Part shown: positions 1-7,549 of the stretch, one piece after another
Layout: every line of letters starts with the position of its first letter
How positions within the stretch are numbered: position 1 is the first letter of the stretch
IMG/VR virus record: IMGVR_UViG_2579778797_000001
Location: 1 to 7,549 of that record
Origin: a virus
Lineage: Monodnaviria; Loebvirae; Hofneiviricota; Faserviricetes; Tubulavirales; Inoviridae
Reading direction: 5' to 3' (one strand)
DNA: 7,549 nt
Notes under the pieces: model-generated
Databases searched by the model: none
Told to the model about the DNA's origin: nothing
Seen by the model: only the letters and a program-made list of their open reading frames with translations
Translations under genes and position numbers: made by a program

Positions 1-1215
<1,215 letters not shown>

Positions 1216-1229
1216 TTACCCCCGCAAAA

Positions 1230-1589
1230 TTACTTGCCAACATTAAGCCCATTTGATTTAAATAAATCATAAACCAATCGATACACTCTATCCTTATAAA
1301 GATATATGTATGAAATAAATTGAACATGGAGGATGATATTAAAACAGTACTGAATATTTAAAGGAAGGTAACTGAATGCAACTACAATAACATCGAGTTT
1401 ATTAACATCGGAGATTTGACGAATAATAAAATTGACGGCAGATACAAGAGCATAATATGAAGTGTAGCAAAGACCAAGATAAGAAAGGAGCTTAGCCCAT
1501 GCAACAGCTTTATCACCGATAACTCCTGCAATGAAACGTAGTGATTTTAAAACAACATCAACAAAAAAAGCACCTAAAATGGCCCACAT
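1230..1589 (-). CDS. pVI-like minor coat protein (119 aa)
   Basis: Very hydrophobic ~119-aa protein sitting between pIII and pI as in Ff. C-terminal half resembles Ff pVI (ISD...LP.N...CF.IIL.V). Its ATG overlaps the pIII stop (TGATG) at 1587-1591. Confidence 0.8.
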   Translation of the reverse strand: MWAILGAFFVDVVLKSLRFIAGVIGDKAVAWAKLLSYLGLCYTSYYALVSAVNFIIRQISDVNKLDVIVVAFSYLPLNIQYCFNIILHVQFISYIYLYKDRVYRLVYDLFKSNGLNVGK

Positions 1590-2953
1590 CAGAGTTTTAC
1601 CTCACGTTCAAATAATGTACGGCGAGAAATAACAAAAACGCGTAACATGGTTATCATATAAATAGCATATTCAAGAACAGAACGAACATAATCGTCATAA
1701 GCTTTTGCAAAATGGCTTGTATCAATCTTGAAATTAATCGCGCCAATCAACGGAAGATTAAAGCTAAACTGTAAAGTAAAAGGAAGAGCAGTTCCATTAT
1801 TTGTATTTACCAGTTTGTCAATATTAACTGTAAGCCAATTGTTATTATCATGACTCTCACTTCCCTGTCCTGGCAAATAATGCGAAAGCTCCCCTAAAGG
1901 GAAATCCCCATCAGGCAAAGAAGAAGCTATATTCTGACTAATATCTTTAATACCATTGTCCAGTGAATTTAATGCATTATTCATATCAGCCTGAGAAACA
2001 GAAAAAGCATTATTTAAATCATTCACTGACACCCATATTGTTTTTAACCAGCCCAAAATACCATCAAGCCAGCCATTGTCATCGCCGGATGAGCCACCGG
2101 ATCCTGAACCTGAACTACCGCTACCGGATGAACCGCCGGAGCCCGAGCCGGAGCCACCGCTACCGGATGAACCACCGGAGCCAGAACCTGAACCACCACT
2201 GCCGGATGAGCCGCCGGAACCCGAGCCGGAGCCACCGCTACCGGATGAACCACCGGAGCCAGAACCTGAACCACCACCGGAACTGCCGCCGCCTGGGTTA
2301 CCACCACCGGAACTGCCACCACCTGAGCTACCGCCATCCTCCTTACCATCGGAGAATGCAGGATCTACAGCAACTGGTTTCCAGTCGGCAGTACAAACTG
2401 TATCATCATCGGGATTACAAATAAGAGGATTGCCGGTTGCCTCATAAATACACCCCTGCACATTAACATAACGGGTCCCGTCATCACCTTTATAAACATC
2501 AGAAAAAGTCATACCATCAAGAACCGGACGAGAAAGACAAATCTCGTCAGTTGGCGGCTTATTATATTCAGGTGTCAAATCCCCCTCACCACCCTGAAAA
2601 GCAAGGGTGCAGGCTGTCCACTTTTGCTTGTCTGAATCCCAGACTTTATATGCTGACCACCGGGCACGGACAAAAGACCCGACAGTCGAAGGTGCATTAA
2701 CAGGCGTTGAAAGTGGCACACCACAATAATGAATTATTCCGGAACATGCGTCATAATTGCCCGAACCACAGAAAAGATGACCGGCCGCCCTGGCTAATTT
2801 AATCGACGTCCCCGCGTCCGAATAATCTGTCCTGCAGGATGAATGGCCTGCACACTGAACAAGTGCATCCGGATTTTCTTTCTCTTCAGCGAAAGAAAAC
2901 GAGGAAAAGAACAAAAACAGAAGCGGAATAATAAAGTGAATCAAAAAAAACAC
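1589..2953 (-). CDS. pIII-like adsorption/minor coat protein (454 aa): signal peptide, Cys-rich N-terminal domains, Gly/Ser linker, C-terminal anchor domain
   Basis: Signal-like N-terminus (FFLIHFIIPLLFLFFSSFSFA). Motif RYVNVQGCIYEATGNPLICNPDDDTVCTADWKPV matches the Ff g3p N1 core (RYANYEGCLWNATGVVVCTGDETQCYGTWVPI, from memory). Gly/Ser linker at aa 207-290 and C-terminal hydrophobic anchor (YAIYMITMLRVFVISRR). Start is GTG at 2951-2953 with AGGAG directly upstream (spacing very short); exact start uncertain. Confidence 0.9.
   Translation of the reverse strand: MFFLIHFIIPLLFLFFSSFSFAEEKENPDALVQCAGHSSCRTDYSDAGTSIKLARAAGHLFCGSGNYDACSGIIHYCGVPLSTPVNAPSTVGSFVRARWSAYKVWDSDKQKWTACTLAFQGGEGDLTPEYNKPPTDEICLSRPVLDGMTFSDVYKGDDGTRYVNVQGCIYEATGNPLICNPDDDTVCTADWKPVAVDPAFSDGKEDGGSSGGGSSGGGNPGGGSSGGGSGSGSGGSSGSGGSGSGSGGSSGSGGSGSGSGGSSGSGGSGSGSGGSSGSGSSGSGSGGSSGDDNGWLDGILGWLKTIWVSVNDLNNAFSVSQADMNNALNSLDNGIKDISQNIASSLPDGDFPLGELSHYLPGQGSESHDNNNWLTVNIDKLVNTNNGTALPFTLQFSFNLPLIGAINFKIDTSHFAKAYDDYVRSVLEYAIYMITMLRVFVISRRTLFEREVKL
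2084..2335. repeat. In-frame imperfect tandem repeats encoding the pIII Gly/Ser linker (about 5 copies of a 39-bp unit, then 15-bp units)
   Basis: Minus-strand translation GGSSGSGGSGSGS repeated. The antisense frame reads PDEPPEPEPEPPL about 4-5 times, showing the 39-bp period directly. A near-identical block recurs after 78 bp (gagccggagccaccgctaccggatgaaccaccggagccagaacctgaacc). Confidence 0.85.
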
Positions 2954-2964
2954 TCCTGGTATGA

Positions 2965-2989
2965 TTAAAAAAGCGCCCCGGAGGGCGCT
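2965..2989 (-). terminator. Rho-independent terminator downstream of the pVIII-like gene
   Basis: On the minus strand a 7-bp GC stem (AGCGCCC / GGGCGCT, plus 2972-2978 and 2983-2989) with a 4-nt loop is followed by a run of six U (plus-strand A-run 2967-2972). Position matches the strong terminator after gene VIII in Ff. Confidence 0.8.
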
Positions 2990-3004
2990 GTCATTAAATA
3001 ACTA

Positions 3005-3265
<261 letters not shown>

Positions 3266-3271
3266 TTAAAA

Positions 3272-3442
3272 TTAATTAACAGCATCACTGAACATCCGGC
3301 AGACCAGAGTGAAAATAACACCAAGACCAAAGCCAAGAAGCCAGCAGACAATCCAGACATAAAGAACGGCCCAGTAAAGCTCCCCGTCCTGTACGCCAGA
3401 ATTCAGTGCGGATAAAACACCGCTGAAATCAAATTCAGTCAT
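3272..3442 (-). CDS. Small hydrophobic protein (56 aa from ATG at 3442, or 67 aa from GTG at 3475); possible pVII/pIX-type minor coat protein
   Basis: One strong TM segment (LYWAVLYVWIVCWLLGFGLGVIFTLV), located between the gV-position gene and pVIII as gVII/gIX are in Ff. No clear Shine-Dalgarno before either start; overlaps the upstream small ORF by 8 nt. Confidence 0.5.
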   Translation of the reverse strand: MTEFDFSGVLSALNSGVQDGELYWAVLYVWIVCWLLGFGLGVIFTLVCRMFSDAVN

Positions 3443-3575
3443 AATAACGCTGAACAGTAATGCTTTGTGAGTCACAGGCGCGAATCAGTTTTATTCCGAT
3501 GCCAAAACCTGAAGAAAATAAAATCATTGCAGGCGCAGCAAATAAAACAAAGTTCAGAAAATCAGCGTCAGACAT
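3435..3575 (-). CDS. Small hydrophobic protein (46 aa from ATG at 3575); possible minor coat protein
   Basis: ATG at 3573-3575 lies 4 nt after the stop of the 141-aa ORF, with AAGG upstream. Single TM segment (FLNFVLFAAPAMILFSSGFGIGI). The track start at 3629 is TTG and overlaps the upstream gene, so the shorter form is preferred. Confidence 0.45.
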   Translation of the reverse strand: MSDADFLNFVLFAAPAMILFSSGFGIGIKLIRACDSQSITVQRYYD

Positions 3576-3579
3576 ATCA

Positions 3580-4005
3580 TCAGCCTTTTTCTTTACCTGC
3601 GGGCAGTGCACCCAGCGGCTGACCGTCAAAACGTTTCATGGAGCCGGAAATAAAACGATACCAGACACCATGACGTTCTGAGCCTGTCGACCATGAGTTA
3701 ACATCCACCGTGAGATAAACAGGTTTGCCCTGCAAATCAGGACATGAATTAAAAAATTTAAAATCCTCCTCAGTACAGGAAAATCGCTCATGCTCCTCAC
3801 GGCGGACTTTTAATTTTCGGTCCTCATACGGATAGGCAATAACAATGGCATATTTGGGTTTAGCCTCAGGGTTATAATGAGAACCCGTGGGTTTTAACTC
3901 CTCATCATTTATGACAGTGGCGTGAATAAAATATCCCGCCATTGTCATGCCTGAGGTAAAACCCTCAGGGGAAGGAAACGGAAAACTGTCGTAAATTTGA
4001 TTCAT
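3580..4005 (-). CDS. Hypothetical protein (141 aa) in the position of the ssDNA-binding/RstB-type gene
   Basis: ATG at 4003-4005 preceded by GAGGAG at about 9 nt; starts 30 nt after the Rep stop. Function is inferred from position only; no motif recognised. Confidence 0.7.
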   Translation of the reverse strand: MNQIYDSFPFPSPEGFTSGMTMAGYFIHATVINDEELKPTGSHYNPEAKPKYAIVIAYPYEDRKLKVRREEHERFSCTEEDFKFFNSCPDLQGKPVYLTVDVNSWSTGSERHGVWYRFISGSMKRFDGQPLGALPAGKEKG

Positions 4006-4035
4006 AAAGCAGACTCCTCAATGTTAAAAATTCAG

Positions 4036-6277
<2,242 letters not shown>

Positions 6278-6410
6278 GACCTCATGTCCTCATGATGACA
6301 AACAAAAAAGAACATACTCAAAAAACATCATGAACACAAGATGTATTAACAACATTTGCTCAAGTGCTCTAGAGTACATGATGGCTAAATACAAAAAAGG
6401 GGGCTAAATA
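6278..6410. promoter_or_regulatory. Divergent intergenic control region between the Rep operon and the RHH gene, with short repeats (candidate operators and/or origin)
   Basis: AT-rich 133 bp. CATGATG at 6291-6297 and 6377-6383 and inverted (CATCATG) at 6326-6332. Tandem CCTCATG at 6280-6286 and 6288-6294. Palindrome CTCTAGAG at about 6367-6374. No convincing sigma70 hexamers could be assigned by eye. Confidence 0.4.
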
Positions 6411-6611
6411 ATGGCTGAAAAAAGAAAGAGTTATAACGTGCCAAACGAGAAGTATCTAAAGCTAGAAAGATTAGCTATTGATGCAAGTCAAAAGATAGGA
6501 AGGAGCATAAAATGGACCGAAGTACTGTCTTACATGATAGATCACTACGCAAAAGACGCAGCAATAGATATGGTAAGTCAGGAAGAACTTAAGAAAAAAA
6601 AGGCAATGTGA
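6411..6611 (+). CDS. Small ribbon-helix-helix (CopG/Arc-like) putative transcriptional regulator (66 aa), divergent from the Rep operon
   Basis: ATG at 6411 preceded by AAGGGGG. N-terminal basic beta-strand-like segment (KRKSYNVP) followed by two predicted helices (EKYLKLERLAI; KWTEVLSYMIDHYAK), typical of RHH repressors. Position is analogous to rstR in CTXphi. Confidence 0.6.
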   Translation: MAEKRKSYNVPNEKYLKLERLAIDASQKIGRSIKWTEVLSYMIDHYAKDAAIDMVSQEELKKKKAM

Positions 6612-6674
6612 TCCCTTTCCCAACGTCAAACAAACAGGCCAGGAAAGATCAAAGGAAAAGTTAAACAAGGAAAT

Positions 6675-6830
6675 ATGCAGATAACCAGTGACTTAATCCT
6701 TGACCTGCTGATAAAGCATTTCGTTGTTGGCAGCATCACAGGCATGACAATATTCAGCCTGATAACGCTTGTCCCACCGTTGGTGATGACCATACACAAA
6801 AAACTAAGTAAGGACACTGAAATCCTTTAA
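6675..6830 (+). CDS. Small membrane peptide (51 aa), not in the ORF track; co-oriented with and downstream of the RHH gene
   Basis: ATG at 6675 with AAGGA just upstream. Translation MQITSDLILDLLIKHFVVGSITGMTIFSLITLVPPLVMTIHKKLSKDTEIL has one TM helix followed by a basic tail. Stop at 6828-6830 is 30 nt before the terminator at 6860-6899. Confidence 0.35.
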   Translation: MQITSDLILDLLIKHFVVGSITGMTIFSLITLVPPLVMTIHKKLSKDTEIL

Positions 6831-6859
6831 GGTTCAGTGCGCACAATGACGTTATGTAT

Positions 6860-6899
6860 AAAAAGGCCGCTGCGGTGGAGAGTATCGCAGCGGCCTTTT
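6860..6899. terminator. Bidirectional rho-independent terminator at the prophage edge
   Basis: Perfect 10-bp stem GGCCGCTGCG / CGCAGCGGCC (6865-6874 and 6886-6895) with an 11-nt loop, flanked by AAAAA (6860-6864) and TTTT (6896-6899), giving a U-run on both strands. Confidence 0.75.
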
Positions 6900-6929
6900 C
6901 AACATAACGCGTGTCACATTATGCGCACC
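6897..6929. other. dif-like XerC/XerD recombination site; prophage-host junction
   Basis: Minus strand reads GGTGCGCATAA TGT GACACGCG TTATGTTGAAA. The first 14 nt equal E. coli dif (GGTGCGCATAATGTATATTATGTTAAAT, from memory), then the sequence diverges. A XerD-arm-like TTATGTTGAAA (9/11) lies 11 bp from the XerC arm instead of 6 bp. Confidence 0.7.
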
Positions 6930-7005
6930 AATATAAACCAAGGAAGAATCCAGTCGTTGGCGGTCATGATTGTCATGCTCATTAACAATGACCAAACCCC
7001 ATATC

Positions 7006-7209
7006 TCACTTACTACCGTATTCTCGGCTTAACCGTCCATGCAACCTCAACACATTGCTTTCAACTGCCGTCACCACGTTCTCCGGAAAATCTGTCGGTA
7101 ATGAAGTCTTCACGTTATCCAGTGCTGCTGGAATCATTCTGGCAAAGTCACTCAGGATTTCATGCATCTGCACTTCCGGGAATCTCAGCACCTTTGCTGT
7201 CGCCAAAAA
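7006..7209 (-). pseudogene. hipA: 3' fragment of hipA (HipA toxin kinase C-terminal ~67 codons); gene truncated at its 5' side
   Basis: Translation FLATAKVLRFPEVQMHEILSDFARMIPAALDNVKTSLPTDFPENVVTAVESNVLRLHGRLSREYGSK matches my memory of the E. coli HipA C-terminus. The frame is closed by a TGA immediately upstream (7210-7212), so no full-length hipA is possible. HipB operators lie 25 bp away. Confidence 0.6.
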
Positions 7210-7234
7210 TCATGTCATACGTCCACAGCAAGTT

Positions 7235-7347
7235 TATCCGCTTAAGGGGATATTATAAGTTTTATCCTTTAGTGAGGATAAGTCAATCTGGAAACACATC
7301 TTATCCGCTCTACGGGATAAACGCTGCGATATCCGCGATCGCGGATA
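7235..7347 (-). promoter_or_regulatory. hipBA promoter-operator region: four HipB operator palindromes TATCC-N8-GGATA
   Basis: Exact TATCC-N8-GGATA at 7235-7252, 7263-7280, 7302-7319 and 7330-7347 (the last an 18-bp perfect palindrome TATCCGCGATCGCGGATA). Centre spacings are 28, 39 and 28 bp. This matches the published HipB operator consensus and four-operator organisation. Confidence 0.75.
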
Positions 7348-7399
7348 AAAAGGAGGATTTAAATAAGGCGTTGATGCGCCGTTTGAAGTCGGCAATATT

Positions 7400-7428
7400 A
7401 AGCCGCATGCCATCTCGACATGCGGCTT
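7400..7428. other. Inverted repeat / hairpin just downstream of the autotransporter-like gene (possible weak terminator)
   Basis: AAGCCGCATG (7400-7409) pairs with CATGCGGCTT (7419-7428) around a 9-nt loop. Flanks are A/T-rich but there is no clean U-run on either strand. Confidence 0.35.
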
Positions 7429-7435
7429 ATACGGT

Positions 7436-7549
7436 TTACCAGCTATATTTCACTCCCAGCATGCCCTGAGTATCGCTATAGCCTTTATCACCTAGTTGCA
7501 CACCGACATTCCCCCACAGGCTAAGGTTGTTAGTGACATTTCCCGACAT
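7436..7549 (-). CDS. 3' end (last 37 codons) of an outer-membrane autotransporter-like gene continuing beyond the window (yneO/ydeU-like position upstream of hipB)
   Basis: Minus-strand frame open to the window edge; translation ...GNVGVQLGDKGYSDTQGMLGVKYSW then TAA at 7436-7438. Alternating hydrophobic residues and a terminal aromatic (YSW) are typical of the last beta-strand of autotransporter barrels. In E. coli K-12 an autotransporter pseudogene lies directly upstream of hipB (memory). Confidence 0.5.
   Translation of the reverse strand: MSGNVTNNLSLWGNVGVQLGDKGYSDTQGMLGVKYSW

What the first reader, a model, noticed from the sequence alone, without database searches (positions are those of the whole stretch)
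7006..7347. hipBA toxin-antitoxin locus reduced to an orphan operator array plus a hipA 3' stub
Four exact HipB operators (TATCC-N8-GGATA) are intact, but only about 25 bp separate the last operator from a hipA C-terminal fragment. A tiny ATG-ACA-TGA frame sits where hipB should start. Thus hipB and roughly the first 370 codons of hipA (the whole kinase core) appear deleted while the regulatory DNA and the last ~67 codons are retained. This is a clean natural knockout of a persistence toxin system immediately beside dif and a prophage junction.
Basis: partly seen in the sequence, partly recalled or inferred. Interest (0 to 1): 0.7.

Follow-up and report, generated by a model that had tools for sequence, protein, structure and literature searches.

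The report
Deleted hipBA toxin-antitoxin locus remnant
This E. coli strain has lost almost all of its hipBA persistence toxin-antitoxin genes in one 1,381-bp deletion, leaving the four repressor-binding sites and a dead tail of the toxin gene; this is real but ordinary, because about one complete E. coli genome in six carries some comparable damage at this locus.

Summary

- **Flanks.** Window 6916-7209 and 7209-7532 are 100% identical to the two flanks of E. coli K-12 hipBA.
- **Deletion.** 1,381 bp of K-12 sequence are missing between them, with 1 nt of microhomology at the junction.
- **What remains.** All four exact TATCC-N8-GGATA HipB operators, the hipB leader and its ATG plus 1-2 nt, and the last 67 codons of hipA (residues 374-440).
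- **What is gone.** hipB, and hipA codons 1-373, which hold the N-terminal domain, the Gly-rich loop and Ser150.

Three details needed correcting. The real hipB ATG survives and opens a 17-codon out-of-frame ORF. ATG-ACA-TGA is native K-12 sequence. The neighbouring "dif" is a hybrid dif/attP junction of a XerCD-type filamentous prophage.

The window is 100% identical to the draft assembly GCA_000627155.1. The exact junction occurs in none of 5,426 complete E. coli genomes.

The kind of lesion is common. About 16% of complete genomes lack at least 20% of hipBA. Two other strains independently show the same "four orphan operators plus hipA stub" state. The O157:H7 genomes sampled carry a related deletion. 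The same prophage lies beside intact hipBA in at least six other assemblies, so the phage is not the cause. This is a private allele of ordinary toxin-antitoxin erosion, of low interest.

The parts
7006..7209 (-). hipA 3' stub: the last 67 codons (HipA residues 374-440) plus the stop codon at 7006-7008. Nucleotide 7209 is the ambiguous junction base.
   Evidence: 100% identical to K-12 hipA. Matches residues 374-440 of PDB HipA chains at E = 2e-39. No Pfam domain is detectable in it. HipA_C spans residues 149-401 and Couple_hipA spans 6-103 in full-length HipA.
7209..7209 (.). Deletion junction. K-12 L001 1220 is joined to 2602, or 1219 to 2601. 1,381 bp are missing, with 1 nt of microhomology.
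   Evidence: The two BLAST segments overlap by one base. Junction sequences are compared.
7160..7213 (-). The retained hipB start codon (7213-7211) now opens a 17-codon out-of-frame ORF, MIFGDSKGAEIPGSADA*. This is a by-product of the deletion.
   Evidence: Translation. The first 4-5 nt are the hipB start (ATGAT) and the rest is hipA read in the wrong frame.
7214..7234 (-). hipB 5' leader. It contains the native ATG-ACA-TGA (7221-7213), which overlaps the hipB ATG.
   Evidence: Identical to K-12.
7235..7252 (.). HipB operator nearest hipB: TATCCGCTTAAGGGGATA.
   Evidence: Identical to K-12 L001 2627.
7263..7280 (.). HipB operator: TATCCTTTAGTGAGGATA.
   Evidence: Identical to K-12 L001 2655.
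7302..7319 (.). HipB operator: TATCCGCTCTACGGGATA.
   Evidence: Identical to K-12 L001 2694.
7330..7347 (.). HipB operator furthest from hipB: TATCCGCGATCGCGGATA.
   Evidence: Identical to K-12 L001 2722.
6902..6929 (-). Hybrid dif/attP junction of the prophage: the host XerC arm GGTGCGCATAA plus TGT, joined to the phage sequence GACACGCGTTATGT.
   Evidence: Compared with K-12 dif and with both prophage ends in ten related loci. Homology to K-12 starts at 6916.
6866..6898 (-). GC-rich hairpin followed by UUUUU, just inside the prophage. It is the first terminator-like structure downstream of the hip promoter.
   Evidence: Fold (z = -3.7 for 6855-7010). The pattern scan did not call it because the loop is 11 nt.
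1..6915 (-). Part of a filamentous (inovirus-type) prophage: a Zot-like protein (1-1212), a pIII-like coat protein (1589-2953), a small coat-like ORF, and a Rep protein of the Phage_GPA family (4036-6036/6138).
   Evidence: Pfam hits. Related prophages occur in about 100 of 5,426 complete genomes.
7436..7549 (-). C-terminal remnant of the neighbouring autotransporter pseudogene. A second deletion relative to K-12 (about 1.4 kb) begins at about 7533.

Best explanation
This is the chromosomal hipBA type II toxin-antitoxin locus of an E. coli strain (draft assembly GCA_000627155.1), inactivated by one spontaneous 1,381-bp illegitimate deletion with 1 nt of microhomology.

The deletion fuses the first 4-5 nt of hipB to codon 374 of hipA.

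Shown:
- Neither HipB nor a HipA kinase can be made from this locus.
- The Couple_hipA domain and most of HipA_C are gone, including Ser150 and the Gly-rich loop 151-156.
- The promoter and operator DNA is untouched.

Inferred:
- With no HipB, the four operators are unoccupied and the hip promoter is derepressed.
- That promoter then makes a short non-functional transcript: a 17-codon junk ORF followed by the untranslated hipA tail.
- The transcript runs across the hybrid dif/attP site and probably ends at the hairpin at 6866-6898, just inside the prophage.
- The operators survive because the deletion happened to stop 25 bp short of them, not because they are used.
- Removing toxin and antitoxin in one step is the viable way to lose such a module, since loss of hipB alone would free HipA.
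- The expected phenotype is that of a laboratory hipBA deletion, which is little or none. The neighbouring prophage is incidental.
For: - Both flanks are 100% identical to K-12, and 1,381 bp are missing between them.
- The stub equals HipA 374-440. The HipA domains lie at residues 6-103 and 149-401. The stub itself has no Pfam hit.
- There are four exact operators, with 0 of 200 shuffles reaching that number.
- Ser150 and the Gly-rich loop 151-156 are required for HipA activity and regulation (PMC10627512).
- HipB represses hipBA by cooperative binding to four TATCCN8GGATA operators, and a hipA deletion gave no phenotype (PMC3376134).
- The same prophage lies next to intact hipBA in seven places, so the phage did not cause the deletion.
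- hipBA is covered at 80% or more in only 4,564 of 5,426 complete genomes. 682 have partial matches and 180 have none.
- Independent alleles of the same class exist. O157:H16 Res13 lacks L001 1700-2584 and GPEC1222 lacks L001 1506-2586; both keep four operators and a hipA 3' stub. O157:H7 lacks 2083-2700. Many further lesions are listed.
- The source strain has two more deletions in the adjacent autotransporter pseudogene, which fits local gene decay.
- The window is 100% identical to GCA_000627155.1 contig JJLO01000111.1.
Against: - No expression or phenotype data exist. Derepression of the promoter and termination at 6866-6898 are inferences.
- Only about 12.5 kb of the source genome was examined, so a second hipBA-like module elsewhere (for example hipH/yjjJ, hipBST or a hipA-2 type locus) cannot be excluded. 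A HipB-like repressor from such a module could still occupy the operators.
- The assembly is a draft, and the junction was not checked against reads.
Confidence: 0.9

Rival explanations
1. The retained operator/promoter array has been co-opted. Free of HipB, it would act as a constitutive promoter firing through the hybrid dif/attP site towards the prophage. Alternatively it would be a binding platform for a HipB-like repressor encoded elsewhere, influencing Xer recombination, prophage stability or expression, or producing a functional micro-protein or HipA C-terminal peptide.
For: - The promoter, the operators, the hipB leader and the ATG are all 100% intact.
- The promoter points at the hybrid dif/attP site about 280 bp away.
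- Two other independent deletions also stop inside the first 21 nt of hipB and keep all four operators.
- ATG-ACA-TGA is in frame with the stub, so low-level re-initiation is conceivable.
Against: - A strong hairpin plus U-run lies at the phage edge, so read-through into phage genes is unlikely.
- The junction is found in one assembly only. It is absent from 5,426 complete genomes and from the genome, metagenome and viral contig collections, so there is no sign of selection.
- Other alleles destroy the operators as well: O157:H7, L026 and MS8324.
- The stub lacks every catalytic element.
- The surveys that found the other alleles favoured alleles that retain the operator flank.
Confidence: 0.05
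2. The deletion is an assembly artefact of the draft genome, and the strain really has intact hipBA.
For: - The source is a draft assembly.
- Three separate gaps relative to K-12 lie within about 5 kb.
Against: - The hipBA junction has only 1 nt of microhomology and no repeats that could collapse.
- The flanks are unique sequence and are perfectly collinear with K-12.
- Comparable deletions are present in finished genomes.
- The contig is recorded for two samples.
Confidence: 0.03
3. The deletion is a laboratory-engineered hipBA knockout.
For: The deletion removes both genes neatly, from the hipB start codon.
Against: - There is no FRT, resistance-cassette or restriction-site scar. The endpoint inside hipA (codon 373/374) is not a designed boundary.
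- The strain carries a wild-type filamentous prophage and other natural deletions.
Confidence: 0.01

Closest known systems
E. coli K-12 hipBA operon (HipA Ser/Thr kinase toxin, HipB HTH antitoxin/repressor, four TATCCN8GGATA operators)
   Same: Same chromosomal locus. The retained DNA is 100% identical: the operators, the leader, the hipB ATG, the last 67 hipA codons and the region between hipA and dif.
   Different: 1,381 bp are missing: hipB and hipA codons 1-373. The locus is therefore a remnant and not a functional toxin-antitoxin system.
Independent natural hipBA deletions in E. coli O157:H16 Res13-Lact-PEA12-26 and in GPEC1222
   Same: hipB and the 5' part of hipA are deleted. All four operators and a hipA 3' stub are kept. 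The endpoint on the hipB side lies within the first 21 nt of hipB.
   Different: The endpoints differ (L001 1700-2584 and 1506-2586), the retained stubs are longer, and no prophage was examined at dif in those strains.
E. coli O157:H7 hipA pseudogene (seen in all four O157:H7-type rows of the evenly spaced sample; endpoints mapped in strain PA20)
   Same: hipB and the hipA 5' end are removed in one deletion, leaving a 3' hipA pseudogene.
   Different: The deletion is 618 bp. It also removes three of the four operators, and it retains about 350 hipA codons.
Laboratory hipA / hipBA deletion strains of K-12
   Same: The same genes are absent, so the expected phenotype is the same. PMC3376134 reports no phenotype for a hipA deletion.
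   Different: This deletion is natural and scar-less, has an arbitrary endpoint, and sits in a different strain background.
XerCD/dif-integrating filamentous prophages (CTXphi, YpfPhi/CUS-1, UPphi types)
   Same: The neighbouring element has Zot-like, pIII-like and Rep genes. It is inserted at dif with a hybrid site on one side and a re-formed dif on the other, and it is often present in tandem copies (PMC4266046; PMC7307601).
   Different: It is not part of the hip remnant. Its sequence relationship to CUS-1/YpfPhi was not tested. The nearest Rep proteins in the phage collection are only about 29-33% identical.

Membership tests
HipBA type II toxin-antitoxin system (functional member) | HipA kinase toxin with the Couple_hipA N-terminal domain and the HipA_C kinase core (Gly-rich loop 151-156, Ser150) | tested here: not met
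   Only residues 374-440 remain. The domains lie at 6-103 and 149-401. The stub has no Pfam hit. Loop and Ser150 positions are taken from PMC10627512.
HipBA type II toxin-antitoxin system (functional member) | HipB Xre-type HTH antitoxin gene immediately upstream of hipA and overlapping it | tested here: not met
   Only ATGA(T) of hipB is left. No HTH ORF lies between 7006 and 7435.
HipBA type II toxin-antitoxin system (functional member) | Four TATCC-N8-GGATA HipB operators in the promoter region | tested here: met
   Four exact sites, identical in sequence and spacing to K-12.
hipBA locus of E. coli (orthologous position) | Synteny: the dif side downstream of hipA, and the autotransporter pseudogene upstream of the operators | tested here: met
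   Both flanks are collinear with K-12 and 100% identical.
XerCD/dif-integrating filamentous prophage (neighbour, not part of the finding) | Inovirus core genes (Zot/pI-like, pIII-like, rolling-circle Rep) and insertion at dif with hybrid att sites | tested here: met
   Pfam Zot, Phage_Coat_A and Phage_GPA hits. The dif/attP hybrid in the window and the re-formed dif at the far end in relatives.
CUS-1 / YpfPhi phage group specifically | High nucleotide identity to CUS-1/YpfPhi | not tested
   Neither sequence was available in the collections. Megablast against the phage collection found nothing.

The most novel reading that the evidence does not exclude
Loss of hipBA could be adaptive in this phage-carrying background rather than neutral. 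One version is that HipA-mediated growth arrest restricts chronic filamentous-phage production. Another is that the orphaned, HipB-free promoter aimed at the hybrid dif/attP site alters Xer-mediated prophage excision or amplification. A related mechanistic reading is that the 5' end of hipB and the T6 run at hipA codons 372-374 are true deletion hot spots, created by the bent HipB-operator complex in the recombination-prone terminus region.
Probability: 0.05. Interest if true: 0.45.

Novelty: new member of a known kind. Interest (0 to 1): 0.15.

Why it matters
It matters little on its own. It is one more strain-specific pseudogenisation of a non-essential chromosomal toxin-antitoxin module.

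Three modest points are useful:
- It gives a natural, scar-free hipBA-null strain with an intact promoter/operator region. That could serve as a HipB-free reporter context.
- The survey made here shows that hipBA is lost or damaged in about 16% of complete E. coli genomes, through many independent events, including the O157:H7 genomes sampled. The papers read here call hipBA conserved or relatively well conserved. This is relevant to claims that HipA is a general persistence determinant.
- It shows that the dif-integrated filamentous prophage and the hip deletion are independent events.

Tried and rejected
- **Junction in complete genomes.** I searched for the exact junction in 5,426 complete E. 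coli genomes with a 720-nt and a 101-nt query.
- **Junction in other collections.** An exact 39-mer search of genome contigs, metagenome contigs and viral contigs found nothing.
- **66-aa stub ORF.** Looking it up found only a Logan contig with a frameshifted but otherwise intact hipA, not the deletion.
- **454-aa pIII-like product.** It is not on record. The Zot product is too widespread to identify the source. The 666-aa Rep product did identify the source contig.
- **Prophage against the phage collection.** Megablast gave no match. tblastn with Rep gave only distant relatives at about 29-33% identity, so the phage could not be named.
- **Promoter/terminator pattern scan of 6600-7549.** It called neither the hip promoter nor the hairpin. 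The hairpin was seen only by folding.
- **Rfam at gathering threshold.** Nothing in the window.
- **Deletion through the GACAT direct repeat.** GACAT occurs near both endpoints, but the predicted product does not match the junction. Rejected.
- **T6 run as a deletion hot spot.** Four alleles end there. However, those loci were selected through the 53-aa ORF just downstream. In the less biased set no other allele ends there. Left as unproven.
- **Papers.** Schumacher 2009 and 2015 could not be read because they are not held.

Full report
**What is in the sequence**

The pattern TATCC-N8-GGATA occurs exactly four times in the window, at 7235, 7263, 7302 and 7330. Even allowing one mismatch, the expectation is 0.18, and none of 200 dinucleotide-preserving shuffles reached four.

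On the minus strand, 7006-7209 reads FLATAKVLRFPEVQMHEILSDFARMIPAALDNVKTSLPTDFPENVVTAVESNVLRLHGRLSREYGSK*. This is identical to the C-terminus of K-12 HipA. It matches residues 374-440 of solved HipA structures (3DNT, 3HZI, 3TPD and others) at E = 2e-39. The ORF list shows it as a 66-aa TTG-started ORF, 7006-7206.

**Defining the lesion**

I fetched the K-12 hipBA region as locus L001. In it, hipA is 1017-2339 and hipB is 2339-2605, both on the minus strand, and the autotransporter pseudogene starts at 2828.

- Window 6916-7209 aligns to L001 927-1220 at 100%.
- Window 7209-7532 aligns to L001 2601-2924 at 100%.
- The two segments share one base. So 1,381 bp of K-12 are missing (L001 1221-2601, or equivalently 1220-2600), with 1 nt of microhomology.

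In the sense orientation the junction reads ...GGACGTATGACATGA[T]TTTTGGCGACAGC... K-12 has ...GACATGAT|GAGCTTT... at the hipB start and ...CGCGACATT|TTTTGGCGAC... in hipA.

What remains:
- the entire regulatory region, with four operators identical in sequence and spacing to K-12;
- the hipB leader;
- the hipB ATG plus 1-2 nt;
- the last 67 hipA codons.

What is lost is all of HipB and HipA residues 1-373. In full-length HipA, Pfam places Couple_hipA at 6-103 and HipA_C at 149-401. The stub alone gives no Pfam hit. Ser150 and the Gly-rich loop 151-156, which are needed for ATP binding and regulation, lie in the deleted part (PMC10627512). From my own knowledge, not checked here, the catalytic Asp309 and the Mg-binding Asp332 are also N-terminal to residue 374.

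1. ATG-ACA-TGA (7221-7213) is unchanged K-12 sequence. It overlaps the genuine hipB start (ATG at 7213-7211), and that start survives.
2. The deletion length is not a multiple of three. From the hipB ATG it produces a 17-codon out-of-frame ORF, MIFGDSKGAEIPGSADA* (7213-7160), and not a HipB-HipA fusion.
3. The stub is 67 codons, and 373 codons are deleted.
4. The neighbouring site is not an intact dif. On the minus strand, 6929-6902 reads GGTGCGCATAATGT|GACACGCGTTATGT. That is the host XerC arm joined to phage sequence. In relatives the canonical dif, (A/G)GTGCGCATAATGTATATTATGTTAAAT, is re-formed at the far end of the prophage, which lies outside this window.

**Source**

The 666-aa Rep protein of the window is on record in a single contig, NCBI draft assembly GCA_000627155.1, JJLO01000111.1. 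The whole 7,549-nt window is 100% identical to that contig, and the contig contains the junction 39-mer.

In that strain the adjacent autotransporter pseudogene carries two more deletions relative to K-12. One is about 1.4 kb and starts at window position about 7533. The other is 218 bp. This stretch of the terminus region is therefore decaying in several places.

**How unusual is it**

The exact junction is in none of 5,426 complete RefSeq E. coli genomes. It is also absent from the genome, metagenome and viral contig collections.

The kind of lesion is common, however. With K-12 hipBA as the query, 4,564 of 5,426 genomes have at least 80% coverage, 682 have only partial matches, and 180 have none.

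Independent alleles that I mapped, in L001 coordinates:

| Strain or locus | Missing or disrupted | State left behind |
|---|---|---|
| O157:H16 Res13 | 1700-2584 | hipB and hipA 5' gone; four operators and a hipA 3' stub kept |
| GPEC1222 | 1506-2586 | hipB and hipA 5' gone; four operators and a hipA 3' stub kept |
| O157:H7 (mapped in PA20; same coverage in the 4 sampled rows) | 2083-2700 | hipB and hipA 5' gone; three of the four operators also gone |
| HS-01 | 1301-2472 | hipB 3' part and most of hipA gone |
| G47-1 | internal hipA deletion | hipB kept |
| 503025 | internal hipA deletion | hipB kept |
| DA33137, plus 11 genomes with the same match pattern (not mapped) | internal hipA deletion | hipB kept |
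| MS8324 | large deletion | hipA 3' part only |
| BDSF8-3 | Tn3-associated truncation | hipA 3' part only |
| GD33 | IS903B insertion | hipBA interrupted |

The first two rows are the same class as this window.

The 53-aa ORF that gene callers find in such stubs is recorded in 100 blocks of the assembly collection. Ten examples showed further deletions and frameshifts.

The papers I could read call hipBA 'conserved' or 'relatively well-conserved' (PMC7232551 and PMC3966885). I found none that describes these alleles.

**The prophage is incidental**

The left 6.9 kb of the window is a filamentous prophage with Zot-like, pIII-like and Phage_GPA Rep genes. Relatives occur in about 100 complete genomes.

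The closest one (99.1% identity, strain 100416) and loci L004, L005, L007, L008, L010 and L011 all have the phage at the same hybrid site next to intact hipA (440 aa) and hipB (88 aa).

**Most likely functional consequence (inferred)**

- The locus is dead as a toxin-antitoxin system.
- HipB normally represses the operon through these four operators (PMC3376134 and PMC3920265). Without HipB the promoter should be constitutively on.
- It should then make a short junk transcript. That transcript crosses the stub and the hybrid att site, and meets a GC-rich hairpin plus U-run at 6866-6898 (z = -3.7 for the folded segment).
- A hipA deletion in K-12 had no phenotype (PMC3376134), so little effect on the cell is expected.
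- One step that removes both genes is the viable way to lose the module.

**Rivals**

- Co-option of the orphan promoter and operators is not excluded. It has no support beyond the intactness of the DNA and the fact that two other deletions also stop within the first 21 nt of hipB. The searches used favoured alleles that keep this flank.
- An assembly artefact is unlikely, because there is no repeat at the junction.
- An engineered deletion is unlikely, because there is no scar, the endpoint is arbitrary, and the strain carries wild-type mobile DNA.

**Verdict**

This is a new, apparently private allele of a well-known kind of event: erosion of a chromosomal toxin-antitoxin locus. Interest is low.

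Noticed in passing
window 7533-7549 and beyond (L023 reverse complement 7954-8943): The neighbouring autotransporter pseudogene (ECSE_1600 family; yneO/ydeK in K-12) carries two further deletions relative to K-12. One is about 1.4 kb (L001 2925-4323) and starts at window position about 7533. The other is 218 bp (L001 5201-5418). The 37-aa ORF at 7436-7549 is the leftover C-terminus of the beta-barrel.
   Followed up: partly
window 7205-7209 (the hipA T6 run, L001 about 1216-1222); loci L026, L028, L033: Four different deletions end in or next to the same T6 run at hipA codons 372-374: the window, L026, L028 and L033. Those loci were selected through the 53-aa ORF just downstream, and no allele in the less biased set ends there, so this may be ascertainment bias.
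   Followed up: partly
window 7209-7213; L019 (O157:H16) and L021 (GPEC1222): Three independent deletions have their hipB-side endpoint within the first 5-21 nt of hipB (L001 2601, 2585 and 2587), and all three leave the four operators intact.
   Followed up: partly
window 6902-6929; L003-L013: The prophage is integrated at dif. On the hipA side is a hybrid site (host XerC arm plus the phage sequence GACACGCGTTATGT). A canonical dif is re-formed at the far end. In strain 100416 and in GCA_052768345 the phage is present as tandem copies joined by the phage attP (AGTGCGCATAATGTGACA(C/T)GCGTTATGT).
   Followed up: yes
L004, L009, L012, L013 (far side of the prophage): In several relatives the phage secretin gene is followed directly by the ydeP-like molybdopterin gene, so the F9 fimbrial genes that flank dif in other strains are missing. 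This is another variable or deleted stretch next to dif.
   Followed up: no
window 1589-2953 (- strand), repeats at about 2085-2277: The pIII-like coat gene has a Gly/Ser-rich repeat region. The product length varies among close relatives (425, 451, 454 and 464 aa), and an internal repeat of about 115 nt at 93% identity is visible.
   Followed up: no
window 6866-6898 (- strand): A GC-rich hairpin with an 11-nt loop is followed by UUUUU, immediately inside the prophage end. It looks like an insulator or terminator between host and phage transcription. The pattern scan missed it.
   Followed up: partly
window 6139-6915: The regulatory end of the prophage differs from the closest relative, strain 100416, where coverage is 91% in two pieces and the small plus-strand ORF is 62 aa. 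Here the small ORF is 6411-6611 (+), 66 aa, with no Pfam hit. This suggests module exchange at that end of the phage.
   Followed up: no
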